DNA of 64,000 nt from contig CAZTHK010000001.1 in assembly GCA_964613215.1 (NCBI GenBank), forward strand, positions 99,486 to 163,485. The letters run 5' to 3'. The notes under the pieces are model-generated. The model was given only the letters and a program-made list of their open reading frames with translations. It did no database searches and had not been told where the DNA came from. The stretch is from an uncultured bacterium (lineage in GTDB: Bacteria > Krumholzibacteriota > Krumholzibacteriia > Krumholzibacteriales > CAZTHK01). The translations under genes were made by a program, and so were the position numbers. This document shows, piece by piece, positions 13,485 to 26,000 of the stretch; positions within the stretch are counted from its first letter, which is position 1; the number at the start of each line of letters is the position of its first letter.

Positions 13485-13513
13485 TTGACAATTATGTTAT
13501 AGTGTAATATAAG
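13485..13513 (+). promoter_or_regulatory. Sigma70-type promoter for the ArsR-family gene: -35 TTGACA (13485-13490), 17-nt spacer, -10 TATAAG (13508-13513)
   Basis: Near-consensus hexamers read directly from the sequence. The first ATG of the regulator (13522) lies about 8 nt downstream of the -10 box with no Shine-Dalgarno, so the mRNA would be leaderless. Confidence 0.5.
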
Positions 13514-13521
13514 TGTCTGTC

Positions 13522-13875
13522 ATGCGAGTTAAGAATAATAAAATTTTCGAGTTACACGCAGCATTCTGCAAGACCCTGGCCAATCCCAAGAGGCTGATTA
13601 TCATTACAGCCCTGGAAAAGAAGGAGATGACCGTGGGAGAGCTGGCCAAACTGCTGGAAACCTCGCTATCCACCACCAGCCAGCATCTGAAGATACTCCG
13701 GGACAGGGATATTGTGGATGTAAAGAAGGATGGCAAGAAATCTTACTATTTTCTCAATGACAAGGAGTTAGTCTACGCCACTAACAGGATAAGAGAGATC
13801 ATCCTTAAGCTTTACCGGAAGAAAGGGGAGGTTATCGATTACGATTTTACATCCAGGGAACACATTGTAGATTAA
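13522..13875 (+). CDS. ArsR/SmtB-family winged-helix transcriptional regulator
   Basis: …LANPKRLIIITALEKKEMTVGELAKLLETSLSTTSQHLKILRDRDIV… is a typical ArsR HTH. It has a single Cys and lacks the SqrR/BigR Cys pair. ATG 13522 chosen; the ORF opens at a GTG at 13513. Confidence 0.85.
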   Translation: MRVKNNKIFELHAAFCKTLANPKRLIIITALEKKEMTVGELAKLLETSLSTTSQHLKILRDRDIVDVKKDGKKSYYFLNDKELVYATNRIREIILKLYRKKGEVIDYDFTSREHIVD

Positions 13876-13898
13876 TTTTTTTTGCTGTTATAATTTAG

Positions 13899-13920
13899 CA
13901 ATTTATAAATTTATGAATTG
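13899..13920. promoter_or_regulatory. 22-bp near-perfect palindrome CAATTTATAAATTTATGAATTG (20/22 symmetric), candidate ArsR-family operator, just downstream of a TATAAT box (13889-13894) and upstream of the dsrE-like gene
   Basis: Read directly. The palindrome sits between a consensus -10 hexamer and the RBS/ATG of the next gene at 13947, which is the classic repressor-operator position. Confidence 0.4.
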
Positions 13921-13946
13921 TTTAATTAAACAAGAAGGAGAATTGT

Positions 13947-14369
13947 ATGGCAACTAAGATGACCATCGGACTTTTCTCGGGGAGTCTGGACAGATTAACA
14001 GCGGCCGGAATAGTTCTGAGCGGAGCGGCCGCGGACGATATGGATGTGGAGGTGTTTGTTCTGCTTCAGGGGGCCAGGGCATTCAAGAAGGATATAGCCG
14101 AAGACAGGGAACAGCTCAAACTTGCCGAGAACGATCATCTCAGAGAGGAATTCCTGGAATCCCTGGACCGCCTCAAGGTCAATCCCTGGCTGGATTTTTT
14201 CAGGGAAGCAAGGGAACTGACCAACGTCAGGATACACATCTGTGGACTGGCTGGTAAGATATGGGGAGGGGAGAGGCTGGAGGATTTTGTCGACATCGCA
14301 GATGATATCTGCGGAATCGGAGAATATATCACCTCCGCTGAAGAGGCGGATATTCATCTGTTTATCTAG
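13947..14369 (+). CDS. DsrE/DsrF/TusD-like (YchN-fold) sulfur-relay protein
   Basis: 140-aa protein with the DsrE-like pattern (…IGLFSGSLDRLTAAGIVLSGAA…VFVLLQGA…RIHICGLAG…), including a conserved Cys in the ICGLAG loop. Good RBS (AAGGAG). Confidence 0.65.
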   Translation: MATKMTIGLFSGSLDRLTAAGIVLSGAAADDMDVEVFVLLQGARAFKKDIAEDREQLKLAENDHLREEFLESLDRLKVNPWLDFFREARELTNVRIHICGLAGKIWGGERLEDFVDIADDICGIGEYITSAEEADIHLFI

Positions 14370-14387
14370 AGAGGAAAGGTTGGAACA

Positions 14388-14639
14388 ATGGATAGTGAAG
14401 AACTTAAGAATATGGAAGCCAATGAGAAAGTGGATGCCAGGGGTACTGCCTGTCCCGGCCCCCTGCTGGCTGCGAAGAAGGCCATCGGAAAGATAGACAG
14501 TGGAGAAACCATGGAGATACTGTCATCCGATGAGGGAACCAAAAGGGATGTTCCCAAGTGGGCCCGGAAGAAGGGGCATGAATACCTGGGAACAGTGGAT
14601 GAATCGGGATACTTCAGGATATTTCTGAAGAAGAAATAA
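14388..14639 (+). CDS. tusA: TusA-family sulfur carrier protein
   Basis: 83-aa protein with the canonical CPxP motif (DARGTACPGPLLAAKKAI). RBS GAGGAAAGG upstream. Confidence 0.85.
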   Translation: MDSEELKNMEANEKVDARGTACPGPLLAAKKAIGKIDSGETMEILSSDEGTKRDVPKWARKKGHEYLGTVDESGYFRIFLKKK

Positions 14640-14640
14640 C

Positions 14641-15045
14641 GTGGCAAACGGGGCTGACATACTGGTATTCTCCACGGAGAAGATTTCTGATCCGGCCATA
14701 GATATGGCGGGTTTGCTTAAACTTCATTATCCCCCTTCCGTTTATGTGATAACCGTCCCCTGCTCAAGTTCTATCAAGCCCAGATGGATAATGCATGCTT
14801 TTCACAAGGGATTCGGCGGTGTATTTATTGCCGCCGACGGAACCGATTGTCCATACAGTGACAGATGCACCGGGATGACCGGGGAAATCGTTTCCAATAC
14901 ACATGAACTGATGAAGAAGGAGGACATAGACCCGGCCCGGCTCAGGATGGCAGCCATATGTTCAGTCTGTTCTGAAAGTTTTGTCAGGCATATGAAGAAC
15001 TTTGCCGGATTTCTGTCAGATTCTGAAGGAGAAGGCATAGAGTAG
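14641..15045 (+). CDS. MvhD/FlpD-like hydrogenase delta-subunit-type [2Fe-2S] protein (split-off C-terminal module of QmoB/HdrA)
   Basis: GTG start 1 nt after the tusA stop. The protein aligns by eye to MvhD (…ILVFSTEK…HYPPSVYVITVPCSS…GGVFIAADGTDCPYSDRC…) and has conserved Cys residues. Confidence 0.7.
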   Translation: MANGADILVFSTEKISDPAIDMAGLLKLHYPPSVYVITVPCSSSIKPRWIMHAFHKGFGGVFIAADGTDCPYSDRCTGMTGEIVSNTHELMKKEDIDPARLRMAAICSVCSESFVRHMKNFAGFLSDSEGEGIE

Positions 15046-15046
15046 T

Positions 15047-16354
15047 ATGGAAAAGCAAATTCCGGAGAATAAATATGATGTACTGGTGGTAGGGGGTGGA
15101 ATAGCGGGGCAGGAGGCTGCTCTCAATATGGGGAACCTGGGCTACCGGGTCCTCCTGGTGGAGAAGGACCTCTCCATAGGGGGGAAGATGATCCTTTTGA
15201 GCAAGGTTTTTCCCACCCTCGATTGTGCCGCCTGTATCGCCACACCTAAGATGTCGGAGACGGCAAGGCATCCCAATATATCCATTTATACCAACAGCCG
15301 TATCAGGGGGATCAGAAAGAACTCAGATGAATCTTTTCAGGCCGGTCTGGTGATTAAGCCCCGGTATGTGGATGAGAAAGCCTGCACCGGATGTCAGGAC
15401 TGCGAAGAGGTATGCCCGGTGGTGGTAAGAGATCAGTATCAGTATGATCTGGTAGGGCGGAAGGCGGCTTTTATACCCTTCAGTGTTGCCAGCCCCCGGA
15501 TAGCCAGCATAGATATTGACAACTGCATACTCTGCGGGGCATGTGAGAAGGCCTGCCCTGCCGGTGCCATAGATTTCAGCAGGGAAGAAGAGGAGATACC
15601 GGTCAGGGTTAAGTCGGTGATACTGGCTACCGGTTTTCACCTCTTCGATCCCACTCAGATGGAACGGTACGGCTACGGGAAGTATAGGAATGTAATAACC
15701 TCCATGCAGATGGAGAGACAGCTGGTCCCAACCAGGCCCTACAACAACGTGCTCAGGCCGGGGGACGGCAAGATGCCGGATGATATAGCTTATGTTCTTT
15801 GCACCGGATCGAGGGATGACACGGTTGGCACACCGATATGCTCCCAGATATGCTGCATGTATTCCATAAAACAGGCTCAACTGATAATGGGCGCTCTGCC
15901 CATGGCGGATGTGACAATATACTATATTGATATCAGGGCCTTCGGAAAGGGATTCGAAGAATTCTACAACCAGGCCAGGGATATGGGGGTTTCATTCATC
16001 AAGGGGAAGATAGGAGAGATCGAGGGAGAGGTTGATGGCGATCTTACCCTTAAGTATGAGGATGTTGAAACCAGCACCTACCGGGAGGCTCAGCACGATA
16101 TGGTGGTGCTGTCGGTAGGGGTAATGGCAAACCGCGATCCGGCCGGATTCTTCCGTGAGAGGGCTCTGGAGCTGGATCAGTATGGATTTGTCAGGCAGTT
16201 GGATGAGCTTGCCAATCCTGCCAGAACCAGTATCGAAGGGGTGTTTGCCGCCGGGACGGCTACAGCACCAATGGATATACCGGATTCCATAGCATCAGCC
16301 GGTGCGGCTGCGGCGGAGGCGGCGGGCTACCTGAAATCGAAGGGGATAAAATGA
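15047..16354 (+). CDS. HdrA-type FAD/Fe-S flavoprotein, QmoA-like
   Basis: FAD fold VLVVGGGIAGQEAA. HdrA non-cubane cluster signature CTGSRDDTVGTPICSQICC. Inserted ferredoxin motifs CTGCQDCEEVCP and CILCGACEKACP. Confidence 0.85.
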   Translation: MEKQIPENKYDVLVVGGGIAGQEAALNMGNLGYRVLLVEKDLSIGGKMILLSKVFPTLDCAACIATPKMSETARHPNISIYTNSRIRGIRKNSDESFQAGLVIKPRYVDEKACTGCQDCEEVCPVVVRDQYQYDLVGRKAAFIPFSVASPRIASIDIDNCILCGACEKACPAGAIDFSREEEEIPVRVKSVILATGFHLFDPTQMERYGYGKYRNVITSMQMERQLVPTRPYNNVLRPGDGKMPDDIAYVLCTGSRDDTVGTPICSQICCMYSIKQAQLIMGALPMADVTIYYIDIRAFGKGFEEFYNQARDMGVSFIKGKIGEIEGEVDGDLTLKYEDVETSTYREAQHDMVVLSVGVMANRDPAGFFRERALELDQYGFVRQLDELANPARTSIEGVFAAGTATAPMDIPDSIASAGAAAAEAAGYLKSKGIK

Positions 16355-18309
16355 GGGAGAGGATCGGAGTATATATATGCCACTGTGGTTCCAACATATC
16401 CGATTATGTTGATGTGGAGGCGGTAAGGGAGGCGGTGTCCGGAGAGGAGGGTGTGGCCCTTGCTAAAACCACCATGTTCGCCTGTGCCGATTCGGCCCAG
16501 AGTGAGATGGTAAGTGATATAAAGGAGAATCAGCTGGATGGCCTGGTGGTTGCTTCATGCTCTCCCAAGCTCCACCTCTACACCTTCAGAAATGTGGCTG
16601 AGAGGGCCGGGTTGAATCCATTCAACTATGTTCAGGCAAATATAAGAGAGCAGGTTTCCTGGGCTCATTCCGACAGGCCCGAACAGGCCACCCGCAAGGC
16701 CATCCGGGTGGTGAAATCGGCCATTTCCAGGGCGAGGCTGTCAAAGCCGCTGACCCCCCCCACCATATCATCCGAAAATGTGGTTCTGGTAGTGGGTGCT
16801 GGAGTAGCAGGGATGAGGACCGCCATAGAACTGGCCGATATGGGATCCCATGTTTACCTGATAGAGAAGGATCATTTTGCCGGCGGCAGGGTTGCTCAAT
16901 GGGGAGGAGTGTACGGAACCGATGAGAGGGGGTATGAGATAACTGCCAGGCTGTATGATGAGGTAAAGGCAAGGGATAGAATTAATCTTTTCACCGGTAC
17001 CGGGATAGAATTTGTATCGGGAAGTGTGGGCAACTTCGAGGTAACCCTGAAGAAGCATCCCCGCAATTTTTCGCAGGAGGGAGTTGATACGGATACTCCG
17101 GAATTCAGGGAGAAGCTGTCCCGGGCCATGGAGGCCTGCCCCGAAGAAGTACCCGATCCCTTTGATTTCGGGCTGACCGGCAGAAGGGCCATTTATCCCA
17201 ATCATCCCGGGCAGTATCCGGCCATCCCTGCCATAGATGGTCAGGCCTGTACCCGCTGCGGCAAGTGCGAGGAGATACTTCCGGGGGTTGACCTGAATCA
17301 GGAGGAGGAATCGATCACTGTCAGTGTGGGAGCAATTGTGCTGTGCACCGGTTTCGATCCCTACCAGCCATCCCACGGGGAATTCGGCTACGGTGAGATA
17401 GATAATGTTATAACCCTTCAGGAATTCAGAAGGCTGATCTCACTGAGTGAGGGTGGCAAGCTGACCTATAATAACAGAAGGATAAATAATATTTCCTATA
17501 TATACTGTGTGGGAAGCAGGCAGATAGAGGGGGAGAATAAATACTGTTCCAGATACTGCTGCTCTTCGGCAATCTACACTGCCATTATGGCCGGGGAGAA
17601 GTTCAAGGATATCAAGAACTTCCATTTCCACAGGGGGATAAGAAGCTACGGCAAACAGGAGTCACTGTACCAGGAATCATCCGCCAGTGGGGATATATAT
17701 TTCCAGTGCTCTGACGATGAGATTCCCAGTGTGGGGCAGGATGGTGGTGAAACGGTGGTAAAGATAAACGATATATTGACTTCTGGAAGGGAGATAGAGG
17801 TTGAGTCGGATCTGGTGGTTCTGGTAACCGGGATGGAGCCCGGAAGCAATGGCACCCTGGTTGACCTTCTGAAAGTTCCCCTGGGCAGGGACGGTTTCTT
17901 CAATGAGGTCCACCCCAAGTTGAAACCGGTGGAGATTGTTATGGACGGTATCTTTATTGCCGGCACCTGCCATTCACCCAAGAATATTACCGAGACCATG
18001 AACTCCGCCCTCTCCGCCGCAGTTAAGTCTAATTCACTGATAAGTGCAGGCGAGATCGAACTGGAACCGGCTATGGCCCGGATCGACCCGGCCCTGTGCG
18101 AATGGTGCGGGAAGTGCAGTGAAGCTTGCCCCTTCGATGCTATCATAAGGGAAGAAGCTGAAGATAAAGTGATCGCCTCTGTGAGTGAAGCTAACTGCAA
18201 GGGATGCGGGATGTGCCTCCCGGTGTGTCCGGTGAATGCCATCCAGTTGACCGGCAATTCCGATGCAGAGATAGAGAGCATGATAGACGCTCTGATACAG
18301 CAGGAATAG
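16351..18309 (+). CDS. HdrA-type FAD/Fe-S flavoprotein, QmoB-like (lacks fused MvhD domain)
   Basis: ATGA overlap with the preceding gene. FAD fold VVLVVGAGVAGM. HdrA signature CVGSRQIEGENKYCSRYCC. C-terminal 2x[4Fe-4S] motifs CEWCGKCSEACP and CKGCGMCLPVCP. TAG stop. Confidence 0.85.
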   Translation: MRERIGVYICHCGSNISDYVDVEAVREAVSGEEGVALAKTTMFACADSAQSEMVSDIKENQLDGLVVASCSPKLHLYTFRNVAERAGLNPFNYVQANIREQVSWAHSDRPEQATRKAIRVVKSAISRARLSKPLTPPTISSENVVLVVGAGVAGMRTAIELADMGSHVYLIEKDHFAGGRVAQWGGVYGTDERGYEITARLYDEVKARDRINLFTGTGIEFVSGSVGNFEVTLKKHPRNFSQEGVDTDTPEFREKLSRAMEACPEEVPDPFDFGLTGRRAIYPNHPGQYPAIPAIDGQACTRCGKCEEILPGVDLNQEEESITVSVGAIVLCTGFDPYQPSHGEFGYGEIDNVITLQEFRRLISLSEGGKLTYNNRRINNISYIYCVGSRQIEGENKYCSRYCCSSAIYTAIMAGEKFKDIKNFHFHRGIRSYGKQESLYQESSASGDIYFQCSDDEIPSVGQDGGETVVKINDILTSGREIEVESDLVVLVTGMEPGSNGTLVDLLKVPLGRDGFFNEVHPKLKPVEIVMDGIFIAGTCHSPKNITETMNSALSAAVKSNSLISAGEIELEPAMARIDPALCEWCGKCSEACPFDAIIREEAEDKVIASVSEANCKGCGMCLPVCPVNAIQLTGNSDAEIESMIDALIQQE

Positions 18310-18313
18310 AAAA

Positions 18314-18589
18314 GTGAGTGAGAATAGAACAGTAGATATAATGAAGAAGAAGAGAAAGGTCCCCGGAGAAGTGAGGGAGGGGATGAAGAATTTCAACCGG
18401 ATCAAGAAGACCATTCTCGAGGTCCTCAGGGAGGGTCCGGCTACCATTCCCGGGATTGCCGGCAAGACAGGAATGTCTCAACATATAGTGACTTATCACC
18501 TTATGACAATGATGAAGTATGGAGTGGTGGAGGCGGACAGGCCGGATGATATGGATGAGTATTATTATTACAGAGTGAAGGAAAATTGA
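18314..18589 (+). CDS. Small winged-helix DNA-binding protein (possibly only 68 aa, from the ATG at 18383, which has a strong RBS GAGGGAGGGG)
   Basis: HTH-like …TIPGIAGKTGMSQHIVTYHLMTMMKYGVVEA…. It sits 4 nt after the qmoB-like gene and 1 nt before the qmoC-like gene. Confidence 0.55.
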   Translation: MSENRTVDIMKKKRKVPGEVREGMKNFNRIKKTILEVLREGPATIPGIAGKTGMSQHIVTYHLMTMMKYGVVEADRPDDMDEYYYYRVKEN

Positions 18590-18590
18590 T

Positions 18591-19757
18591 ATGGCTCGAA
18601 TCGACCACAAGTTTGCTTCACAGATCGAGGAATTCGGAGGGATTGATTTCACCGCCTGTTACAATTGCGGCAACTGCACTGCAGTTTGCCCTCTGGTTGA
18701 GGAGAACAGTTCCTTTCCCCGGCGGATGCTGAGGTATACTATCCTGGGCCTGGAGGAGGATATCCAGGGCTCCCTGGATCCCTGGCTGTGCTACTACTGC
18801 GGTGATTGCAGCGAGACCTGCCCCCGCCAGTCCAACCCGGGGGAGATAATGATGTCCCTGAGGAGATACCTCACCTCGGTCTATGACTGGACCGGCTTTT
18901 CCAGGAGGTTCTACACCTCGAAGGTGTGGGAGCTGGGATCAATAGGAGCAGTGGCAGCTATGGTAGTGATACTGTTTGCAATCTTTCTTCCCCCTACTGC
19001 CGATCCGGCCAATCTTATAAATTCCGCCGGAGGAGTAAGGATAAACAGTTTCGTTAAGGGTATGGAGGGTGAAACATTCGTCAGTGTCATAGAACTGGGT
19101 GACTGGGTAATGGCTGCCATAGTATCATTCTTTCTGCTCTCTAACATCTTCAATATGTATCTGAAGGTGGTTATTAAGAACAAAAAGGTAAAGATCCCCC
19201 TCCATCTATATGTAAAGGAGGCCTGGAACCTCTTCTATCATTTTGGCACCCAGATAAGGTTGTCCAGATGCACGGATAAATCATACTGGGCCCTTCACTG
19301 GCTGCTGATGTCCGGATATACTATTATGTTTACCATGATTGTTGTTTTTCTGCCCTGGTTCCAGGTGGAAAAGGTCCATCCCGTCACTCACCCCCAGCGT
19401 ATTCTGGGCTACTATGCAACCTTCGGCCTTCTCTTCGCCATTGCCATCTGGATGATAAGGAGGATCAGAAAGAGGGATGAGAAACACCGCTATTCCCATT
19501 CCACCGACTGGATATTTCTGATAATGCTCTTTCTTACCACCCTGACCGGAATCATGGTTCACCTGTTCAGGATAAACGGAATGATATATTTCACCTACTA
19601 TACCTACGTGATACATCTGGCTGTTCTGGTACCCATGCTGGTGCTGGAAGTCCCCTTCTCCAAGTGGTCTCACCTGGCATACCGGCCCTTTGCCATGTAT
19701 TTCAATAACCTGATTAACTCCGCCGTTATTATTGATGATAAGAAGCGACAGGGTTAA
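18591..19757 (+). CDS. QmoC-like membrane subunit: HdrC-like 2x[4Fe-4S] domain fused to HdrE/NarI-like di-heme-b membrane domain
   Basis: N-terminal CYNCGNCTAVCP and CYYCGDCSETCP motifs, then about 6 TM helices bearing conserved His (HWLL, VHLF, IHLAV, SHLAYRP). Confidence 0.75.
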   Translation: MARIDHKFASQIEEFGGIDFTACYNCGNCTAVCPLVEENSSFPRRMLRYTILGLEEDIQGSLDPWLCYYCGDCSETCPRQSNPGEIMMSLRRYLTSVYDWTGFSRRFYTSKVWELGSIGAVAAMVVILFAIFLPPTADPANLINSAGGVRINSFVKGMEGETFVSVIELGDWVMAAIVSFFLLSNIFNMYLKVVIKNKKVKIPLHLYVKEAWNLFYHFGTQIRLSRCTDKSYWALHWLLMSGYTIMFTMIVVFLPWFQVEKVHPVTHPQRILGYYATFGLLFAIAIWMIRRIRKRDEKHRYSHSTDWIFLIMLFLTTLTGIMVHLFRINGMIYFTYYTYVIHLAVLVPMLVLEVPFSKWSHLAYRPFAMYFNNLINSAVIIDDKKRQG

Positions 19758-20024: not shown

Positions 20025-20678
20025 ATGTTCAAAGTAAAAGTCTTGGTTTTTTCACTGTTGCTTGTTTTCGCAACTAACGTGTTCGCTGGTGATGTGGACC
20101 CGTGTGAAAGCGAAACTGGACAGAGCTGTTCGCCTATGATGCTGAACATTTGTCCTTTCGGCGACATGGAGAATATTTTCGAGAGTTGTACAACAGCCAT
20201 AGAAGATACCCATTACGTATACATCTATGTGAGAGATGTGTTAGGTAATGGCGTAGCTGGTATTCCGGGCTCGGATTACTGGCTGGGCGCTTGTGACAGC
20301 CAGTATGATCTCTGCCTGTGTGCCGAACCCATTGTAGCCGATTATATCACCAACGACGAAGGCTACACTGAGTTTTCAGGCACAATCGCCGGCGGCGGTT
20401 GTGTGAACAGTGGCGGAATCTATATAGCAGTTCAGGGTAAGATCATCCAGGAAGCTGGATGCACAGGTTATGACTGTGTGGACATGATAATCAAGAGTCC
20501 CGATCTTACAGCAGACTGTCAGGTCAACCTCTCAGATCTCAGTGCATTCGGTCTGACATACACATTAAGCTCAGGTGATACTGACTATAATAGTTGTGCA
20601 GATTACAATGATGATGACTCTGTTAATCTGAGTGACCTGTCGTTTTTCGGAATTCATTATCTGCACACATGCCAGTAA
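20025..20678 (+). CDS. Secreted Cys-rich protein with C-terminal dockerin (type I-like) module
   Basis: Signal peptide MFKVKVLVFSLLLVFATNVFA. Two 12-residue Ca-binding-loop repeats, DLTADCQVNLSD and DYNDDDSVNLSD, each followed by LS(A/F)FG. Strong RBS AGGAGG. Confidence 0.75.
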   Translation: MFKVKVLVFSLLLVFATNVFAGDVDPCESETGQSCSPMMLNICPFGDMENIFESCTTAIEDTHYVYIYVRDVLGNGVAGIPGSDYWLGACDSQYDLCLCAEPIVADYITNDEGYTEFSGTIAGGGCVNSGGIYIAVQGKIIQEAGCTGYDCVDMIIKSPDLTADCQVNLSDLSAFGLTYTLSSGDTDYNSCADYNDDDSVNLSDLSFFGIHYLHTCQ

Positions 20679-20784
20679 TGGTATGACCGGTGTATGATAA
20701 TTATTTCCAACAATCCTGATTTGCTATTTTTAAATTAGTTGGATTACACCTTAGGGCTGCATTAAAATACGGGAGTTGGAGACT

Positions 20785-21339
20785 ATGAAGAGAGTACTGT
20801 TGACAATTGCTATGGTTCTCCTAATTCCAGGAGTGATCAACGCACAGACCATGGGTGTCTACTTCGACGGTCCGGGGCAGATGGCATATTCTCCCTCGGG
20901 TGCGTTTGTATTATTCGACGCTTACATATATCTGCATGAAGCGGATTACTATGTAACCGGCGCCGAATATCAGCTGCAGACACCTGAAGATCCGGAGCAC
21001 ACTTACTTTAGTTTCCAGAGTATAGAGTATCCGGATAACATGTCGGTTAATCTGGGTGATCCCTGGGCAGGCCATTCTATTTCTTACTGGCCGCCGTTAA
21101 ATGGGTATGAACCTGGCTATAACCTGCTGCTCACTCTTAAGGATTGCTACATTACAGGGCCTTGCGACTGGACTGATTATCCTATCGTTATAGGTCCTCA
21201 TCCTGCAAACGGAGGACCGTGGATCGCTTACACACCTGATAATGAATTAGCTCTCGTTATTGGGTACACTTCGATTCTTTGCCCTGTGATTGGTACCCAG
21301 GAGGAAAGCTGGGGCGCCATCAAATCGATGTATGAATAA
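20785..21339 (+). CDS. Secreted protein, distant paralog of the two downstream genes; ends …EESWGAIKSMYE
   Basis: Signal peptide MKRVLLTIAMVLLIPGVINAQ. Shares its architecture and the invariant C-terminal tail with 21510..22052 and 22221..22763. ATG 20785 is preceded by GGGAG. Confidence 0.75.
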   Translation: MKRVLLTIAMVLLIPGVINAQTMGVYFDGPGQMAYSPSGAFVLFDAYIYLHEADYYVTGAEYQLQTPEDPEHTYFSFQSIEYPDNMSVNLGDPWAGHSISYWPPLNGYEPGYNLLLTLKDCYITGPCDWTDYPIVIGPHPANGGPWIAYTPDNELALVIGYTSILCPVIGTQEESWGAIKSMYE

Positions 21340-21509
21340 ATTTCTTGGAACTGTGGCTGGATGAGGATTTCATCCAGCCACGGACCCGGGAAGACGGAAG
21401 GGAGGTGGTGCCTATTGGAGAAATCTGATTAAACTCGCCACCAAAACTCTTCCTGTTTTAAAGCGGGTAAAGAAAGAGAGCGAATCAAGTTTTAAGGAGG
21501 ACACTAAAA

Positions 21510-22052
21510 ATGAAAAAGGTTTTATTGCTAACTGTTGCGATACTTATGTTTTCCAGCTTAGCAATAGCTCAGAATCCTCCGCAGGGATACATTGGAATTT
21601 TTGCGGATGAAACCAAATCGAGCAATTGCTACGAGGGCGATCTAATGGCACCTATGTACATGTACATCTGGTGCCTGCCCAGTGAGTATGGGCAGATGGC
21701 TGCCGAGTTTATGGTTACTTATCCTGCTAATGTTATCACAAGTACCGTAACTGCAGCTCCTCATATCGCAGTATCCATGGGAGATCTGGCCTCAGGTATC
21801 AGCTACAGCTACACGGAATGCCAGTGGGACTGGCACTGGGATTACAAGCAGCTGATGTATGTTACTGACTCCAGCGGCACCCAGGTAGATATAGTGGCTC
21901 ATCCCGATGTGGGAACCTATCAGTTCTCGAACTGTGAAGACGGTTTCCCCATTGAGCCATGCATCTATTACACCCCTCTGTACCTGAATGTCTGTGGTCC
22001 GACCGGGACCGACGATGCCAGCTGGGGTGCTATCAAGGGTATGTATGAATAA
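21510..22052 (+). CDS. Secreted 6-Cys protein of unknown function, paralog B; ends …DDASWGAIKGMYE
   Basis: Signal peptide MKKVLLLTVAILMFSSLAIAQ, RBS AAGGAGG, and about 85% aa identity to 22221..22763. Confidence 0.8.
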   Translation: MKKVLLLTVAILMFSSLAIAQNPPQGYIGIFADETKSSNCYEGDLMAPMYMYIWCLPSEYGQMAAEFMVTYPANVITSTVTAAPHIAVSMGDLASGISYSYTECQWDWHWDYKQLMYVTDSSGTQVDIVAHPDVGTYQFSNCEDGFPIEPCIYYTPLYLNVCGPTGTDDASWGAIKGMYE

Positions 22053-22098
22053 TTCATGCCTTAGATGTTAAAACGGGCTTGAATGTCCGGAAAATTAA

Positions 22099-22130
22099 AA
22101 GGAGGGGGTTTGAAACCCCCTCCTTCTGTT
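22099..22130 (+). terminator. Stem-loop AAGGAGGGGGTT-TGAA-AACCCCCTCCTT followed by CTGTT (weak U-tract)
   Basis: Perfect 12-bp inverted repeat 46 nt after the stop of paralog B. Confidence 0.5.
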
Positions 22131-22220
22131 AACGAGGTGATTGAAGAGGTTTTCTGATAAAGTTGTTAAATCCGTAGTTAGTTTAGACAGTTTGTTAAGC
22201 AACAAAGAGAGGGATCGAAA

Positions 22221-22763
22221 ATGAAAAAGGCTCTACTTCTTGGTGTGGCGCTGCTGCTGGTTTCCAGCATGGCGCTGGCTCAGCTTCCTCCACAGGGTTA
22301 CATTGGGATCTATGCGGATGAAACCAGATCGAGTAATTGCTACGATGGCGATCTAATGGCACCTATGTACATGTACATCTGGTGCCTGCCCAGTGAGAAT
22401 GGGCAGATGGCTGCCGAATTTATGGTCACTTATCCTGCTAATGTTATCACAAGTACCGTAACTGCAGCTCCCCATATCGCAGTATCCATGGGAGATCTGG
22501 CCTCAGGGATCAGCTACAGCTACACGCAATGTATGTGGGATTGGCACTGGGATTACAAGCAGCTGATGTATGTTACTGACTCCAGCGGCACCCAGGTAGA
22601 TATAGTGGCTCATCCCGATGTGGGAACCTTTCAGTTCTCGAACTGTGAAGACGGTTTCCCCATTGAGCCATGCATCTACATCACTCCTCTGTATTTGAAC
22701 GAATGCGGCCAGGTTGGCGCAGATGAAAGCAGCTGGGGTGCTGTCAAGAGCATGTTCGAATAA
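22221..22763 (+). CDS. Secreted 6-Cys protein of unknown function, paralog C; ends …ESSWGAVKSMFE
   Basis: Signal peptide MKKALLLGVALLLVSSMALAQ and a strong RBS. A canonical terminator follows it. Confidence 0.8.
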   Translation: MKKALLLGVALLLVSSMALAQLPPQGYIGIYADETRSSNCYDGDLMAPMYMYIWCLPSENGQMAAEFMVTYPANVITSTVTAAPHIAVSMGDLASGISYSYTQCMWDWHWDYKQLMYVTDSSGTQVDIVAHPDVGTFQFSNCEDGFPIEPCIYITPLYLNECGQVGADESSWGAVKSMFE

Positions 22764-23063: not shown

Positions 23064-26000
23064 TTGAAGAGCCGGGGAATTTTTTATAACCTGGGGCCGG
23101 GTTTGATCCTTGCCGTTTTATTTTTATCCATCTTTACAATCAATGGTTATGGAGAGGTCCATTCCCTCAGCTCCGGCAGTGGCAGAATCAGTTTCAGGAT
23201 AACCGTTCCCCCGCCTCGACTTGTTCCCGCCGGGAAGGACGGAATAAGAGTGTTGCTGGAAGGATATGGCAGTTTTTCTCCACCGGGTGCAATTGAACTG
23301 CCCGGCAGGACCTTCCGGTTGGCTATACCTCCGGGGGTCAGTCCGGGACTTTCTTACACTGTAATGGAAAGCAGCGATCTGGGAGAATTAGAAATTGCCC
23401 GGGTATCCGGTGAGAAGATGATTCAGAATGAAGATGGAACCGTTTCATACCGTTCCTTCATGCCACCCGACCCATGGGAAGATAAAAACCTTCCCCCCCC
23501 TGTAAGGACAGGAGAACCCGGATACATGGGGCATCAGCGGGTTCTTCCCATAGAGGTATCTCCTCTGCAGATAAGCAGCGGCGGCAGGGTGACCCTGGTG
23601 CGGGAGATCAGTTTAAGGGTAAGTTATAACCGGACACCTGATGAGATGGGAAGTGCCGACGGACTAATTCAGAAACCCTCAAAAGCCTGGCAGAGGCTGT
23701 ACAGAAATACCCTGGTTAATCCGGGTGATGTTTCCAGGTTCATCCGGCCGCTTAAACAGAGGAGGGTTAGGGAATCTGGCTTTCAGGCGGAGAAGAGGCT
23801 CAAAATCCGCATTCCTGAAACTGGTATCTACAGTATAAGAGCAGATTCCCTTATTAGTGCGGGTATGTCGGTTGGGCTTACCACCGGGTTCTTCTCCCTC
23901 AGGCAGTACTACTATGATGAATCAGAACCTGATTTGCTGAGGAGTGAAGAAATCCCCATCCTGATAGATGAGGGGGAAAATGGGGTAGAGGGTATTTTCG
24001 ACAGCAATGACAGGCTCATCTTCTATGCCCGGGGTATAAAGGACGATCCGGATGCAGGTGATACAGAAGCAGCTTTTACCGATTATAATGTGGCCTGGCT
24101 GGAAGAGGAAGTGCCCGGTTCAATTATGGGGGAGGGCCCGGAACTTCCTGACACTGCCGGTTATCAGTCCCCTCAGTACAGAGCGGTCAAGAAGCTGAGA
24201 GATGACAGTTTCTTTCTGAAATACCCCATTCCCAATACCACGGACTTTTATTTCATCTCCAGTATGCCCGGTGGAAGAAGTGTTCAGCTTCCCTTACAGA
24301 TCGAAGAACCGGCCGGGGAAGGTGATTTTTCCCTGACCGTTACACTCCAATGGTTTAATGTCACTTCACCTCAGAACATCAACTTCGAGATAAGCAATTC
24401 CGGCGGTACCAGGGAGATGGGATCAGGTATACTTGATGTGGAAGAAAAAAAGAGCTTTACCTTTCAGGGTCTGGATGTGGATTGGCTGGTGGATGGAACC
24501 AACCAGCTTATCATAACCAGTAACATCAGAACCGGCTTCCTGGTGGATGAAGTGAGGATAGATTATCATTCCCGGTGGGTGGCCAGGGATAACTCTCTGG
24601 AGTTCGAGTACGGGCCCAGCATATCAGACAGAGAATATAATATTGAGGGATTTGCCACTGATTCAGGCTGCCTGATAGATGTAACCGATCCAGAAAATCC
24701 TACCTGTAATGAACTAACCGCGGAATATTTCCAGCAGGAGGGGGAAAGCTACACTTTGAATATATATCTTCCGGCCGGGGAGCGGAGGCATTTTATAGTC
24801 ATAGGGGAAGATGGTGCTGCGGAGCTGCCTCTCTCCCATGTTTCCCTGCATCTTCCGGCCCATCTGAAGGAGCAGGGTGGACCCTATAACAGCCTGGTGA
24901 TTACCCATCCCCGGTTTCGATCCCGCCTCAGTGAATATGTATCCTGGAGAGAAGACCAGGGTTATCGCATTCTTACTGCCACGGTGGGTCAGATCTACGA
25001 TGAATTCAATGGGGGCAGGCCTCACTGCAGAGCGATCAAACGGTTTATCCAGTATGGTTTTGATTACTGGGGGGTGGAGTTTGTTCTTCTGGCAGGCGAT
25101 GCCAGCGAGGATCACAAGCGTGTCTTTACCAGGGATTCTCCCTATACCTCCTCGGATGGTTCCGGGGAGGATTTTGTTCCTTCCTATACCTACTGTCCCC
25201 GGGTATCTTCCTCGGTTAAGGATGAAGTGGTAGCTTCGGACAAGTGGTATACCTTCCTGGATGTGGAAGGGCAGGACAGGCTTCCCGATGTTTTTATCGG
25301 CCGCATACCGGTGGGGGAGGAGATCGAACTAAGGGCTTATCTTAACAAGCTTTATAGTTTTGAGGAACCCGGGGTCAGCCAGAGCTGGCGCAGGCGCATA
25401 GTGCTGATGGCGGACGATGCCTGGTCCATAAACGGCGATTACCGCTACAACGCCTATGAAAATCAGTTTCGTTACGGTATGGATACCGTGGCAGTGAGAA
25501 TAGAGGAAGCCCTGCCGGGTGGATTTGATATAGATAAGAAGTATCTGTCATATGTCACCGATCAATTTCATCCCAACCAGACCGAGCATGGAGCTTATGT
25601 ACATACCCGGTCGCGTGATTCCACCAGAGCCTACTATACTCCCCGGCTGGTCAGGAGTCTTAATGAGGGAGCGCTTTTCCTTGCCTTCCAGGGGCATGCC
25701 ATGAGGAGAGGACTTACCAGTGAAGGGGCCTTTATGACCGGGGCGGAGTATGACGATCAGGACAGCCTCAGGGTGTTTGGACTCCAACACATATTCCTGG
25801 GATTTGGATGTCACATCAACGAGTTTGCCAAGGCCAAAGAGATGGATTTTGTTTATGACGGTCCCAACGGAGATTGTTTCAGTGAGCAGCTGATGGTAAA
25901 GGCGGGAGCGGGAGCAATCGCCGCTTATGCCAGTTATACCTTCGAGTATCTGGATCAGAATAAGAGACTATGTAACACCTTTCACCGGATGCTCTTTCAG

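What the first reader, a model, noticed from the sequence alone, without database searches (positions are those of the whole stretch)
13485..19757. Qmo-type (HdrA/HdrA/HdrC-HdrE) membrane complex encoded with TusA and DsrE-like sulfur carriers under an ArsR-family regulator, with no AprAB, sat or dsr in the operon
Reading the translations directly, there is one tightly spaced operon. Gaps between genes are 1-4 nt or ATGA overlaps. Its order is an ArsR-family repressor, a DsrE-like protein, TusA (CPxP), an MvhD-like [2Fe-2S] protein and two HdrA-type flavoproteins. Both flavoproteins carry the diagnostic CxGxRD…CSxxCC motif and ferredoxin inserts. Then come a tiny winged-helix protein and a QmoC-like fusion of 2x[4Fe-4S] HdrC-like and di-heme HdrE/NarI-like domains. 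From established knowledge, QmoABC normally partners with AprAB/Sat (APS reduction or oxidation). HdrA homologs otherwise appear with HdrBC (sHdr) when linked to TusA/DsrE. A Qmo-type quinone module sitting directly with persulfide-carrier proteins and no CCG-domain HdrB suggests, by inference, an undescribed route. That route would couple the menaquinone pool to protein-bound persulfide or polysulfide sulfur (TusA-SSH/DsrE-SSH) as a reductive or oxidative sulfur-trafficking terminal module.
Basis: partly seen in the sequence, partly recalled or inferred. Interest (0 to 1): 0.78.

Follow-up and report, generated by a model that had tools for sequence, protein, structure and literature searches.

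The report
Qmo-type quinone complex with sulfur carriers
This operon joins two small sulfur-carrier proteins (DsrE2B-like and TusA) to a membrane, quinone-linked flavoprotein complex of the kind sulfate reducers use, and the same seven-gene set recurs in many sediment Bacteroidota and Krumholzibacteriota that carry no sulfate-reduction genes next to it, which points to an uncharacterised and probably widespread way of handling sulfur.

Summary
Window 13513-19757 (+) encodes eight genes in this order:
- an ArsR-type regulator
- a DsrE2B-like protein
- TusA (CPGP)
- a free-standing MvhD
- a QmoA-like HdrA (435 aa)
- a full-length HdrA (652 aa)
- a 91-aa winged-helix protein
- a QmoC-like HdrC plus membrane fusion

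No apr, sat, dsr, CCG/HdrB, rhodanese or YeeE gene was found among the window ORFs examined.

Three corrections:
- The first two gaps are 71 and 18 nt.
- The ArsR gene is not conserved with the cluster.
- The winged-helix protein is probably a subunit, because it is fused to the QmoB-like subunit in four relatives.

The seven-gene core recurs in at least 31 fetched loci from Krumholzibacteriota, a Latescibacteria-labelled MAG and many Bacteroidota. In Bacteroidota it often sits beside a YeeE/YedE transporter, a second TusA, rhodaneses, a porin and a Crp/Fnr regulator. A paralogous cluster, sometimes in the same genome, replaces DsrE/TusA with an Mvh-type [NiFe] hydrogenase.

Best reading (confidence about 0.45): a Qmo-type complex that links menaquinone, and probably ferredoxin or NAD(P)H, to sulfane sulfur on TusA/DsrE, most likely by reduction. 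This is inferred and has not been shown.

Some relatives carry HdrBC-like genes nearby, so a CCG subunit encoded elsewhere cannot be excluded. I found no published description. I rate it a new variant of a known kind.

The parts
13486..13514 (+). sigma-70-like promoter (TTGACA, 17 nt, TAATAT) that ends 7 nt before the ATG at 13522 of the ArsR gene
   Evidence: Read directly from the sequence. This is a consensus match only and function is not shown. This exact site is not in the scan list.
13513..13875 (+). ArsR/SmtB-family winged-helix regulator, 120 aa from GTG 13513 or 117 aa from ATG 13522, with a single Cys
   Evidence: PF01022 5e-14; NF033788 78 bits against a cut-off of 55; BigR model 54 bits against 155, so not met. 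No homologue of it was found in any other fetched locus.
13886..13928 (+). AT-rich ArsR-DsrE spacer carrying an extended -10-like TGtTATAAT and a 22-nt imperfect palindrome (13891-13928); candidate internal promoter and operator
   Evidence: Sequence; inverted repeat I1 at 86% complementarity. The function is inferred.
13947..14369 (+). DsrE2B-like sulfur-carrier protein, 140 aa and soluble; candidate active-site Cys99
   Evidence: PF13686 8e-8. PDB 2QS7 (SSO1126, DsrE2B) 2.5e-14 with Cys99 aligned to the conserved Cys. Cys99 is kept in 31 of 31 orthologues. 934 relatives in the 5.8-billion-protein collection.
14388..14639 (+). TusA sulfur carrier, 83 aa, Cys22 in a CPGP motif
   Evidence: PF01206 3e-23. 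Cys22 is kept in 31 of 31 orthologues.
14641..15045 (+). Free-standing MvhD-family Fe-S protein, the S-type variant: invariant Cys41, 70, 76, 107 and 110; lacks the canonical N-terminal CxxC and the GC of GCHxGDC
   Evidence: PF02662 1e-26. 5ODC_D 6.6e-11. Alignment against hydrogenase-linked and solved MvhD. Cysteines kept in 30 of 30. 3131 close relatives. The subfamily is tight, with 64 clusters at E<1e-10 among 1.84 billion representatives.
15047..16354 (+). QmoA-like HdrA flavoprotein, 435 aa: FAD motif, DCxxC (Cys60/63), FAD-proximal cluster motif CTGSRD...CSQICC, inserted 2x[4Fe-4S] ferredoxin domain; no N- or C-terminal HdrA domains
   Evidence: NF040770 HdrA2 480 bits aligned to model positions 139-561. 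All 14 Cys are invariant in 30 orthologues.
16351..18309 (+). QmoB-like full-length HdrA, 652 aa: N-terminal 4-Cys domain, FAD, proximal cluster, inserted domain with one cluster, C-terminal 2x[4Fe-4S] ferredoxin domain; overlaps the previous gene by ATGA
   Evidence: 5ODC_A 426 bits over residues 3-634. HdrA2 563 bits. Cysteine conservation.
18314..18589 (+). Cys-free winged-helix protein, 91 aa, with a conserved C-terminal DDMDEYYYY motif; probable subunit or docking domain of the complex
   Evidence: HTH_5 27 bits. Present in 27 of 31 S-type loci. Fused to the C-terminus of the QmoB-like subunit in L045, L048, L056 and L064, blastp 4e-13 to 4e-19.
18591..19757 (+). QmoC-like membrane subunit, 388 aa: HdrC-like 2x[4Fe-4S] domain plus six predicted helices with invariant His236, 303, 324, 342 and 361

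Best explanation
The seven genes from dsrE2B-like to qmoC encode one membrane-bound complex of the Qmo/Hdr lineage together with its two sulfur-carrier partners.

Architecture, shown by homology and cysteine patterns:
- The 435-aa and 652-aa HdrA-like flavoproteins form a heterodimer that mimics the HdrA homodimer. Only the small subunit keeps the DCxxC that in HdrA completes the N-terminal cluster of the partner. Only the large subunit has the N-terminal domain and the C-terminal ferredoxin domain.
- The C-terminal ferredoxin domain would hand electrons to the HdrC-like domain of QmoC, and through its membrane domain (presumed b-haem) to menaquinone.
- The free-standing MvhD would dock on the N-terminal domain of the large subunit.
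- The intact inserted ferredoxin domain of the small subunit would be the port for ferredoxin. In four relatives that position holds an NfnB/GltD-like NAD(P)H module instead.
- The winged-helix protein is a structural subunit.

Function, inferred: the redox partner at the cytoplasmic side is sulfane sulfur carried as persulfide, polysulfide or thiosulfonate on TusA Cys22 and/or DsrE2B Cys99. The most likely direction is reductive, R-S-SH + 2e- + 2H+ -> R-SH + H2S. Menaquinol and a low-potential donor (reduced ferredoxin or NAD(P)H) would together supply the electrons at the flavin, as proposed for Qmo and APS reductase. In that case imported or internally formed sulfane sulfur would serve as an electron sink linked to the quinone pool.

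The site of S-S cleavage is unknown. Candidates are the variant MvhD, with five invariant Cys including a new CSVC, or the FAD of the small subunit.

In this genome the ArsR-type repressor probably controls the operon through the palindrome in the 71-nt spacer.
For: Gene content and domains:
- HMM and PDB matches for every subunit.
- Complementary cysteine patterns in the two HdrA-like subunits, with no unassigned conserved Cys.
- QmoC carries 2x CxxCxxCxxxC and five invariant His. Its fold resembles HdrC plus the membrane Fe-S reductase EtfD.

Functional linkage to sulfur:
- The order DsrE/TusA/MvhD/HdrA/HdrA/wHTH/QmoC is conserved in 31 fetched loci, with 11 more cut by contig ends. They come from Krumholzibacteriota, a Latescibacteria-labelled MAG and many Bacteroidota families.
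- Catalytic Cys of DsrE and TusA are invariant.
- The soluble subunits are 66-70% identical across phyla.
- Neighbours of the S-type core in Bacteroidota loci: Crp/Fnr in 14, rhodanese proteins directly upstream in 9 (the one inspected has a signal-peptide-like N-terminus), YeeE/YedE in 8, a second TusA in 4, and a rhodanese lipoprotein with an O/P porin in 4-5.

Module logic:
- A paralogous cluster keeps HdrA, QmoC, HdrA and MvhD but carries [NiFe] hydrogenase small and large subunits plus HycI in place of DsrE/TusA. It is sometimes in the same genome.
- Its MvhD has the canonical cysteine set, whereas the sulfur-linked MvhD has its own invariant set.
- In the QmoC tree the hydrogenase-linked copy of a Krumholzibacteriota genome nests among the sulfur-linked copies.

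Other points:
- Third substrate: an HdrL-like NAD(P)H insertion in L045, shown by Pfam, and inferred from similar length in L048, L056 and L064.
- Subunit status of the wHTH: fusions in four loci.
- Background: QmoB contains an MvhD-like domain, and confurcation was proposed for Qmo (PMC3333476). DsrE2-type proteins are typically linked to Dsr or Hdr systems (PMC4175335).
Against: - No enzyme activity, expression data or structure of a complex is available. The link between the sulfur carriers and the electron-transfer complex rests on gene neighbourhood alone.
- The core has no recognised disulfide or persulfide-cleaving site: no CCG domain and no spare conserved Cys in the flavoproteins.
- Archaeal DsrE2B reacted with no sulfur compound in vitro and did not bind TusA (PMC4175335).
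- By standard potentials recalled from the literature, menaquinol alone cannot reduce persulfide, so the model needs a second, low-potential donor that has not been identified.
- The window itself and the Krumholzibacteriota loci lack YeeE and rhodanese neighbours, so the source of sulfane sulfur in this organism is unknown.
- HdrB/HdrC-like genes beside the cluster in some relatives suggest the seven-gene core may not be the whole enzyme.
- The membrane domain gave no significant NarI match by Foldseek and no PF02665 hit. Haem binding is inferred from invariant His and the qmoC and TcuB model alignments.
Confidence: 0.45

Rival explanations
1. Same complex run in the oxidative, electron-bifurcating direction. 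Sulfide or thiol sulfur is oxidised to a persulfide on TusA/DsrE. One electron goes downhill to menaquinone and the other uphill to ferredoxin or NAD(P)+. This would be an SQR-like entry of sulfide electrons that also produces low-potential reductant.
For: The paralogous hydrogenase-linked cluster fits classical bifurcation, with a donor of intermediate or low potential, quinone as the high-potential acceptor and ferredoxin as the low-potential acceptor. By standard potentials recalled from the literature, the sulfide/sulfane couple (about -270 mV) lies close to the mean of ferredoxin and menaquinone. The carrier organisms come from sulfidic habitats such as the Zodletone spring MAGs. In sulfur oxidisers YeeE-like proteins with TusA serve cytoplasmic sulfur oxidation (PMC11582611).
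Against: The cluster has no means of oxidising sulfane sulfur further: no HdrB/LbpA, rDsr, PDO or Soe was seen in the window. Sulfane sulfur would therefore accumulate. The porin, periplasmic rhodaneses and YeeE in Bacteroidota look like an uptake route for sulfane sulfur or thiosulfate, which is the wrong way round for a sulfide oxidiser. The named carrier taxa are generally regarded as fermentative anaerobes (general knowledge, not tested).
Confidence: 0.15
2. The seven-gene core is incomplete. The catalytic subunit is an HdrB/HdrC-like (CCG) pair encoded elsewhere in this genome. The true substrate is a protein-bound (poly)sulfide bridge or heterodisulfide involving TusA and DsrE, cleaved as in Hdr, DsrK or sHdr enzymes.
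For: HdrC-like (228 aa) and HdrB-like (355 aa, NF041780 134 bits) genes follow QmoC on the same strand in L085-87. About 75-78% identical HdrB-like copies lie within a few kb of the core in L029, L035, L041 and L048, with a partial hit in L050. Among characterised Hdr-lineage enzymes that act on sulfur-sulfur bonds, the cleaving site is a CCG-domain subunit (established knowledge).
Against: There is none in the window or within the fetched flanks (up to 10 kb) in any Krumholzibacteriota or Latescibacteria-labelled locus. Most S-type loci lack it. In L029, L035 and L041 it is on the opposite strand. The single C-terminal ferredoxin domain of the heterodimer is already needed for QmoC.
Confidence: 0.15
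3. TusA and DsrE are not substrates. The complex is a ferredoxin or NAD(P)H:menaquinone oxidoreductase, comparable in logic to Fix or Rnf. The sulfur carriers serve maturation, protection or regulation, for example persulfide sensing or Fe-S and thio-cofactor supply.
For: The electron-transfer core is complete without them. The hydrogenase-linked paralogue shows the HdrA-QmoC module works with other partners. DsrE2B was inert in vitro. The HdrL-like variants add an NAD(P)H site.
Against: The strict, tight co-linearity of DsrE and TusA with a dedicated MvhD variant across phyla, and the added sulfur uptake and transfer genes in Bacteroidota, are hard to explain by an accessory role. Both carrier cysteines are invariant.
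Confidence: 0.15
4. An ordinary QmoABC that serves an APS reductase (AprAB/Sat) encoded elsewhere in the genome.
For: Qmo-like subunit composition. A 'type II' Qmo closer to HdrA occurs in some sulfate reducers (PMC10504309).
Against: QmoC scores 191 bits against the 300-bit equivalog cut-off, and the flavoproteins match HdrA2 rather than any Qmo model. No apr, sat or dsr was seen in the window ORFs examined, nor among conserved or Pfam-annotated neighbours of the other S-type loci. Carriers are mostly Bacteroidales-type taxa that are not known sulfate reducers (general knowledge). The dedicated DsrE/TusA/wHTH partners are absent from canonical sat-aprBA-qmoABC loci.
Confidence: 0.04

Closest known systems
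QmoABC, the quinone-interacting membrane-bound oxidoreductase of sulfate reducers and some sulfur oxidisers (Desulfovibrio, Archaeoglobus, Chlorobaculum), including the HdrA-like 'type II Qmo' noted by Neukirchen et al. 2023
   Same: Two HdrA-related flavoproteins, one short (QmoA-like) and one long (QmoB-like). An MvhD-type module. A QmoC-type fusion of an HdrC-like 2x[4Fe-4S] domain with a multi-helix membrane domain carrying conserved His. The same likely need for a second electron donor or acceptor, that is, confurcation.
   Different: MvhD is a separate protein with its own cysteine set, not a C-terminal domain of QmoB. QmoC is below the NCBIfam equivalog cut-off. There is an extra winged-helix subunit. 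The encoded partners are DsrE2B-like and TusA instead of AprBA/Sat. Hosts are Krumholzibacteriota and Bacteroidota.
sHdr, the sulfur-oxidising heterodisulfide-reductase-like system with TusA, DsrE2/DsrE3 and LbpA (Hyphomicrobium, Aquifex, Metallosphaera)
   Same: An HdrA-family flavoprotein encoded together with TusA and a DsrE2-group protein. A sulfur relay feeds an Hdr-lineage enzyme. In Bacteroidota relatives rhodaneses and a YeeE-like importer are adjacent, as around some shdr loci.
   Different: The core has no HdrB1/B2 (CCG) or HdrC1/C2 and no lipoate-binding protein. It has a QmoC membrane anchor, an MvhD and a second HdrA-like subunit. The chemistry is expected to be two-electron persulfide redox, not four-electron oxidation to sulfite.
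MvhADG-HdrABC of methanogens, and the hydrogenase-linked HdrA-QmoC-HdrA-MvhD-[NiFe] clusters found here in the same phyla
   Same: MvhD acts as an adaptor on the N-terminal domain of HdrA. The HdrA cluster motifs are conserved. The QmoC module is shared with the hydrogenase-linked paralogue at about 55-67% identity.
   Different: No hydrogenase and no HdrB. The output is to quinone through QmoC. The MvhD cysteine ligand pattern is altered. Sulfur carriers occupy the place of the hydrogenase genes.
DsrMKJOP with DsrC trisulfide, and FlxABCD-HdrABC with DsrC
   Same: The concept is shared: a small cysteine-bearing carrier protein presents bound sulfur to an Hdr-related complex that is wired to the quinone pool or to NAD(P)H.
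   Different: Different protein families (DsrK is a CCG protein, DsrM is NarI-like, DsrC is TusE-like). No DsrC, DsrK or DsrAB is present here.
Functional analogues for sulfane sulfur redox: PsrABC/PhsABC, SQR, and NAD(P)H persulfide/polysulfide reductases (Npsr/NSR, SudAB)
   Same: They are possible functional equivalents: sulfane sulfur to sulfide or the reverse, quinone- or flavin-linked.
   Different: Unrelated catalytic subunits (molybdopterin, or flavin plus active-site Cys). Most act on free polysulfide or sulfide rather than on TusA/DsrE-bound sulfur.
YTD cluster (YedE-TusA-DsrE plus conserved hypotheticals, DsrEFH type II) of sulfur disproportionators
   Same: YedE/YeeE-type transporter, TusA and a DsrE-family protein are clustered, as in the Bacteroidota relatives.
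   Different: The YTD cluster has no HdrA, MvhD or QmoC module. The window lacks YedE.

Membership tests
QmoABC complex | Two HdrA-homologous FAD/Fe-S subunits (QmoA short, QmoB long) | tested here: met
   435-aa and 652-aa proteins match HdrA2 at 480 and 563 bits. The long one aligns to solved HdrA over residues 3-634. The motif CxGSR(D/Q)...CSxxCC is in both.
QmoABC complex | QmoC: HdrC-like 2x[4Fe-4S] domain fused to an HdrE/NarI-like di-haem b membrane domain, scoring as a qmoC equivalog | tested here: inconclusive
QmoABC complex | MvhD-like domain fused to the C-terminus of QmoB | tested here: not met
   MvhD is a separate 134-aa gene upstream of the QmoA-like gene. Its cysteine pattern differs from canonical and HdrA-fused MvhD domains.
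QmoABC complex | Genomic and functional partnership with AprBA (and Sat) | tested here: not met
   None among the window ORFs examined, and none among conserved or Pfam-annotated neighbours of the other S-type loci. The rest of the genome could not be searched.
sHdr (sulfur-oxidising Hdr-like) system | HdrB-type CCG-domain catalytic subunits and HdrC subunits | tested here: not met
   No CCG/HdrB-like ORF in the window by tblastn or Pfam. They are present beside the cluster in some relatives only.
sHdr (sulfur-oxidising Hdr-like) system | Lipoate-binding protein LbpA and its maturation genes | tested here: not met
   All eight operon ORFs are otherwise assigned. None of the other scanned window ORFs is H-protein-like.
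sHdr (sulfur-oxidising Hdr-like) system | Clustered TusA and DsrE-family sulfur transferases | tested here: met
   TusA (PF01206) and a DsrE2B-like protein lie directly upstream.
DsrE2B subgroup of the DsrE family | DsrE-fold protein closest to the DsrE2B prototypes, with the conserved active-site Cys | tested here: met
   Best solved relative is 2QS7 (SSO1126, named DsrE2B in PMC4175335) at 2.5e-14 over 130 residues, with Cys99 aligned. Cys99 is invariant. The NCBIfam DsrE2 equivalog is not reached, 18.6 against 210 bits, so it is DsrE2B-like rather than a DsrE2A orthologue.
TusA | PF01206 domain with the Cys-Pro-x-Pro active site | tested here: met
   82 bits against a cut-off of 28.6; CPGP present; Cys invariant. 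The NCBIfam TusA equivalog cut-off is not reached, 50 against 78 bits.
MvhD / FlpD | PF02662 domain with the canonical cysteine set (N-terminal CxxC, MCSG, GCHxGDC) | tested here: inconclusive
   The domain is met at 94 bits. Only two canonical Cys are kept, and three others (Cys76, Cys107, Cys110) are new and invariant. Cluster type cannot be tested here.
HdrA (bifurcating flavoprotein) | N-terminal 4-Cys domain, TrxR-like FAD domain with proximal [4Fe-4S], inserted and C-terminal ferredoxin domains, partner-supplied Cys from DCxxC | tested here: met
   The features are split between the two subunits. The 652-aa protein has everything except DCxxC and one inserted cluster. The 435-aa protein supplies DCxxC and a complete inserted domain. 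NCBIfam HdrA and HdrA2 equivalog cut-offs are not reached, so they are homologues and not methanogen HdrA orthologues.
Persulfide-sensing ArsR regulators (SqrR/BigR type) | Two conserved sensing cysteines and an equivalog-level match | tested here: not met
   Single Cys. BigR model 54 bits against a cut-off of 155. It is a general ArsR/SmtB member only.

The most novel reading that the evidence does not exclude
The cluster encodes a previously unrecognised, flavin-based confurcating (or bifurcating) persulfide reductase. TusA/DsrE-bound sulfane sulfur would be a cytoplasmic respiratory electron acceptor, reduced jointly by menaquinol and ferredoxin or NAD(P)H, without molybdopterin Psr/Phs, Dsr or Apr enzymes. 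The variant MvhD would be the sulfur-reactive Fe-S subunit. If so, abundant 'fermentative' Bacteroidota, Krumholzibacteriota and relatives in sulfidic sediments would be hidden sulfur reducers. The system would also offer a simple model for how Qmo-type complexes couple quinol oxidation to a low-potential partner.
Probability: 0.25. Interest if true: 0.85.

Novelty: new variant of a known kind. Interest (0 to 1): 0.7.

Why it matters
Qmo- and Hdr-type complexes are central to microbial sulfur and methane metabolism. How Qmo couples the quinone pool to a cytoplasmic reaction is still unresolved (Ramos et al. 2012).

Here the same electron-transfer core appears with a different partner set, encoded in the same operon, in lineages that are common heterotrophs of anoxic sediments and are not counted as sulfur respirers. 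Three points follow.

- Scale. The family is large: 3131 close MvhD-variant clusters and 934 DsrE-like clusters in the protein collection. It is currently annotated only as 'hydrogenase iron-sulfur subunit', 'peroxiredoxin family protein' and '4Fe-4S dicluster domain-containing protein'.
- Sulfur budgets. If it reduces or oxidises carrier-bound sulfane sulfur, sulfur-cycle budgets and gene-marker surveys miss it.
- A natural experiment. The paired hydrogenase-linked and sulfur-linked versions swap modules around a shared core, which makes the confurcation hypothesis for Qmo-type complexes testable.

Tried and rejected
- Canonical Qmo-Apr locus: rejected. No apr, sat or dsr in the window ORFs examined or among neighbours of the related loci, and the qmoC equivalog cut-off is not met.
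- Generic pyridine-nucleotide disulfide oxidoreductases: rejected, because of the full-length HdrA match.
- sHdr membership: rejected for the window (no CCG, no LbpA).
- ArsR as a conserved part of the system, or as an SqrR/BigR-type persulfide sensor: rejected.
- Winged-helix protein as a second regulator: considered unlikely after finding it fused to the QmoB-like subunit.
- Extra catalytic cysteines in the flavoproteins: none found. Every conserved Cys maps to a known HdrA cluster motif.
- Fusions of TusA or DsrE with MvhD or HdrA as direct evidence of contact: none among the 120 listed hits of each search. Two MvhD-HdrA 'fusions' among the representatives (P0378, P0393) look like frameshifted high-GC gene calls.
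- Looking for named isolates through cluster membership gave no organism names.
- Literature: seven full-text searches and nine papers read found no description of this cluster. Subscription-only papers, for example the 2021 HdrA review by Appel et al., could not be searched.

Full report
**1. What is there**

The + strand of window 13513-19757 carries eight ORFs.
- An ArsR/SmtB regulator: HTH_5 5e-14; NF033788 78 bits against 55.
- A DsrE-family protein: PF13686 8e-8.
- TusA: PF01206 3e-23, CPGP.
- An MvhD/FlpD protein: PF02662 1e-26.
- Two HdrA-like flavoproteins, at 480 and 563 bits to the NCBIfam HdrA2 model.
- A small winged-helix protein: HTH_5 27 bits.
- A QmoC-like protein: NF038018 aligned over its whole length at 191 bits, with an equivalog cut-off of 300.

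A TTGACA-17-TAATAT promoter-like site ends 7 nt before the ATG at 13522 of the ArsR gene. The 71-nt ArsR-DsrE spacer holds an extended -10-like TGtTATAAT and a 22-nt palindrome. A separate promoter-like site (10 of 12 matches) precedes the next gene at 20025.

The rest of the window encodes peptidases, glycosyltransferases, an RND pump, DNA ligase, NiSOD and similar proteins. No Apr, Sat, Dsr, CCG/HdrB, rhodanese or YeeE gene was seen in the ORF list, in Pfam scans of 20 ORFs or in the tblastn checks.

The same sequence was assembled from two other runs. The closest named relatives are Candidatus Krumholzibacteriales/-ota MAGs, with QmoC identity up to 82%.

**2. Anatomy of the subunits**

*The two flavoproteins.* The 652-aa protein aligns with solved HdrA (5ODC_A) from residue 3 to 634 at 426 bits. 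Its features are:
- the N-terminal 4-Cys domain (C10, C12, C45, C70);
- the FAD motif;
- the FAD-proximal cluster motif (C386, C399, C403, C404);
- a C-terminal 2x[4Fe-4S] ferredoxin domain;
- an inserted ferredoxin domain that keeps cysteines for only one cluster;
- no DCxxC motif.

The 435-aa protein has that DCxxC (C60, C63), the proximal cluster and a complete two-cluster inserted domain, but neither terminal domain. All of these cysteines are invariant in 30-31 orthologues, and no conserved Cys is left unassigned. From established knowledge of the HdrA structure, in which a Cys of one protomer completes the N-terminal cluster of the other, this is what a QmoA/QmoB-type heterodimer should look like.

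*The sulfur carriers.* The DsrE-like protein is closest to the DsrE2B structure 2QS7 (2.5e-14), with Cys99 at the conserved active-site position. Cys99 of DsrE and Cys22 of TusA are invariant.

*MvhD.* This is a distinct variant. It keeps two canonical Cys (C41, C70). It lacks the N-terminal CxxC and the 'GC' of GCHxGDC. It has three new invariant Cys (C76 and C107-x2-C110). The variant forms a tight subfamily with 3131 close relatives, but only 64 clusters at E<1e-10 among 1.84 billion 50%-identity representatives. HdrA-fused MvhD domains carry the canonical pattern.

**3. Conservation and context**

A scan of one genome per species with a QmoC alignment gave more than 593 relatives. I analysed the best 80 together with the loci fetched by exact protein look-up. 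Two architectures dominate, with 31 loci each.

The sulfur-linked type has the order DsrE-like/TusA/MvhD/HdrA435/HdrA652/wHTH/QmoC.
- It occurs in Krumholzibacteriota (L004-L013) and many Bacteroidota (Bacteroidales, Lentimicrobiaceae, Rikenella, Draconibacterium MAGs).
- It was also seen in a Latescibacteria-labelled MAG and in a 1.4-Mb contig.
- Eleven further loci are the same type cut by contig ends.

The hydrogenase-linked type has the order HdrA/QmoC/HdrA/MvhD/[NiFe] small/large/HycI.

Three genomes hold both types: OY787449 (L003 and L076), CAZAUK01 (L006 and L014) and CAVWAP01 (L018 and L028).

The hydrogenase-linked MvhD has the canonical cysteine set. The HdrA subunits are type-specific, at about 300-370 bits against about 560-1060 bits to the window proteins. 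QmoC is about equally similar in both types. In a neighbour-joining tree the hydrogenase-linked QmoC of a Krumholzibacteriota genome nests among the sulfur-linked copies of that phylum (the tree has no support values).

The soluble subunits are 66-70% identical between the window and Bacteroidota orthologues, almost as high as within Krumholzibacteriota. QmoC drops from 72% to 57%.

*Flanking genes.* They are not conserved in Krumholzibacteriota. In Bacteroidota they include:
- a Crp/Fnr regulator at 14 sulfur-linked loci, with homologues at 39 fetched loci of both types;
- one or two rhodanese-family ORFs immediately upstream in 9 loci (the one scanned has two rhodanese domains and a signal-peptide-like N-terminus);
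- a YeeE/YedE transporter in 8 loci;
- a second TusA in 4 loci;
- a rhodanese lipoprotein with an O/P-type porin in 4-5 loci.

*The ArsR gene.* It has no homologue next to any other locus, although L088 has an unrelated ArsR-type gene downstream.

*Informative variants.*
- The winged-helix protein is fused to the C-terminus of the QmoB-like subunit in L045, L048, L056 and L064.
- In L045 the QmoA-like subunit carries an inserted NfnB/GltD-like NAD(P)H module, the HdrL-type architecture. L048, L056 and L064 have similarly long QmoA-like ORFs.
- In L085-87 a shorter QmoC (39% identity) is followed on the same strand by a DUF4405 membrane protein, an HdrC-like protein and an HdrB-like CCG protein.
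- Close homologues of that HdrB/HdrC-like pair lie near the core in L029, L035, L041 and L048, with a partial HdrB-like hit in L050. None occurs in the window or the Krumholzibacteriota loci.

**4. Most likely mechanism**

*Shown.* The subunit set and cofactor motifs of a Qmo-type complex are present. MvhD, a QmoA/QmoB-like heterodimer and QmoC form a plausible electron path from quinone, through the QmoC domains and the C-terminal ferredoxin domain of the large subunit, to FAD. A second port is the inserted ferredoxin domain of the small subunit. A third is MvhD on the N-terminal domain.

*Inferred.* The partner at the cytoplasmic side is sulfane sulfur on TusA and/or DsrE2B. Four observations support this:
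- these are the only other conserved genes;
- they sit where the paralogous cluster has its hydrogenase genes;
- they come with their own MvhD variant;
- in Bacteroidota the operon is extended by a recognisable sulfur uptake and transfer chain.

I favour reduction of carrier-bound persulfide to sulfide. The cluster has nothing that could oxidise sulfane sulfur further, and the neighbouring porin, periplasmic rhodaneses and YeeE look like an import route.

By standard potentials recalled from the literature, menaquinol cannot do this alone. A low-potential co-donor (ferredoxin, or NAD(P)H in the HdrL-like variants) acting at the flavin is therefore required. This is the same confurcation logic that Ramos et al. 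proposed for Qmo and APS reductase.

The catalytic site is the weakest point of the model. Candidates are the variant MvhD or the FAD of the small subunit. Alternatively an HdrB-like protein may be encoded elsewhere.

Overall confidence is about 0.45 that the complex exchanges electrons between the quinone pool and TusA/DsrE-bound sulfur. Confidence in the reductive direction specifically is lower.

*Rivals.*
- The oxidative, bifurcating direction: 0.15.
- An incomplete core that needs HdrBC: 0.15.
- Sulfur carriers as accessories of a ferredoxin/NAD(P)H:menaquinone oxidoreductase: 0.15.
- An ordinary Qmo for a distant Apr: 0.04.

**5. Comparison with known systems**

It works most like QmoABC and is built from the same parts. 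It fails three membership features:
- the QmoC equivalog score is not reached;
- MvhD is not fused to QmoB;
- there is no Apr partnership.

It shares with sHdr the association of an HdrA-type flavoprotein with TusA and a DsrE2-group protein, but lacks HdrB, HdrC and LbpA.

Neukirchen et al. 2023 and the DiSCo paper mention a 'type II' Qmo whose A and B subunits are closer to HdrA. [quoted passage not shown] The present proteins probably belong there, but those papers do not describe a link to TusA/DsrE.

Liu et al. 2014 defined DsrE2B and found it unreactive in vitro. Tanabe et al. 2024 surveyed TusA/DsrE sets only around sHdr and rDsr.

None of my full-text searches found the cluster described. 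Subscription-only literature was not searchable.

**6. Verdict**

The link between a Qmo-type module and sulfur carriers is real, conserved and apparently undescribed. The regulator claim is genome-specific, the 'no HdrB' argument is not general, and the proposed chemistry is untested.

Novelty: a new variant of a known kind, namely a recombination of the Qmo/Hdr electron-transfer core with a sulfur relay in unexpected lineages.

Interest: 0.7.

Noticed in passing
L003 8097-16367; also L014, L017, L018, L020, L037 and others (31 loci): A paralogous conserved cluster, HdrA/QmoC/HdrA/MvhD/[NiFe] hydrogenase small and large subunits/HycI, occurs in Bacteroidota, Calditrichia, Chlorobiota and one Krumholzibacteriota MAG, sometimes in the same genome as the sulfur-linked cluster. 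It looks like an Mvh-type hydrogenase wired to the quinone pool through QmoC, possibly H2-dependent bifurcation to ferredoxin and menaquinone.
   Followed up: partly
L085 13967-17529 (same in L086, L087); L029 13628-15362, L035, L041, L048: In one lineage the sulfur-linked core is followed on the same strand by a DUF4405 membrane protein, an HdrC-like protein and an HdrB-like CCG protein. HdrB-like homologues about 75-78% identical, each with an HdrC-like neighbour, lie near the core in several Bacteroidota loci.
   Followed up: partly
L045 4989-7742 (similar ORF lengths in L048, L056, L064): The QmoA-like subunit is about 900 aa because an NfnB/GltD-like Fer4_20 plus NAD(P)H-binding module is inserted at the position of the inserted ferredoxin domain (HdrL-like architecture). 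Only L045 was scanned with Pfam.
   Followed up: partly
L045 7747-9948, L048 7982-9994, L056 7553-9772, L064 7624-9867: The small winged-helix protein of the operon is fused to the C-terminus of the QmoB-like subunit in these loci. It has a conserved Cys-free C-terminal DDMDEYYYY motif.
   Followed up: yes
window 20025-22763: Four tandem genes for small secreted proteins (217, 187, 180 and 180 aa) have no Pfam match. The last three end in a shared motif, SWGA(I/V)KxM(Y/F)E. The last two are close paralogues. A 1347-aa Peptidase_C25 (gingipain-family) protein follows at 23064-27107.
   Followed up: partly
window 49651-50118: A nickel superoxide dismutase (PF09055, 1.9e-36) in an organism whose relatives come from anoxic sulfidic habitats, which suggests some exposure to oxygen.
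   Followed up: partly
window 13486-13522 and 13886-13928: A near-consensus sigma-70-type promoter ends 7 nt before the ArsR ATG, which may mean a leaderless transcript. An extended -10-like element and a 22-nt palindrome sit in the spacer before the DsrE-like gene.
   Followed up: partly
L004 18948-21164; L085 18653-19795; L029, L035, L041, L050 downstream flanks: A recurring set of uncharacterised genes lies near the sulfur-linked clusters in several genomes: DUF134, a NifX-like Nitro_FeMo-Co domain protein, DUF5320, ParA/CbiA-type ATPases with 4Fe-4S domains and an MBL-fold protein.
   Followed up: no
S-type loci L004-L076 compared with window 13947-19757: The soluble subunits (DsrE-like, TusA, MvhD, QmoA-like) are 66-70% identical between Krumholzibacteriota and Bacteroidota, nearly as high as within Krumholzibacteriota. 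QmoC falls from 72% to 57%. This suggests very strong constraint on the soluble parts or lateral transfer of them.
   Followed up: partly
P0399, P0400, P0406, P0407, P0409 (distant MvhD-variant relatives): Relatives at 31-36% identity keep the C-terminal IC(S/T)VC motif but lose other cluster cysteines, so part of this subfamily may not bind the usual Fe-S cluster.
   Followed up: no
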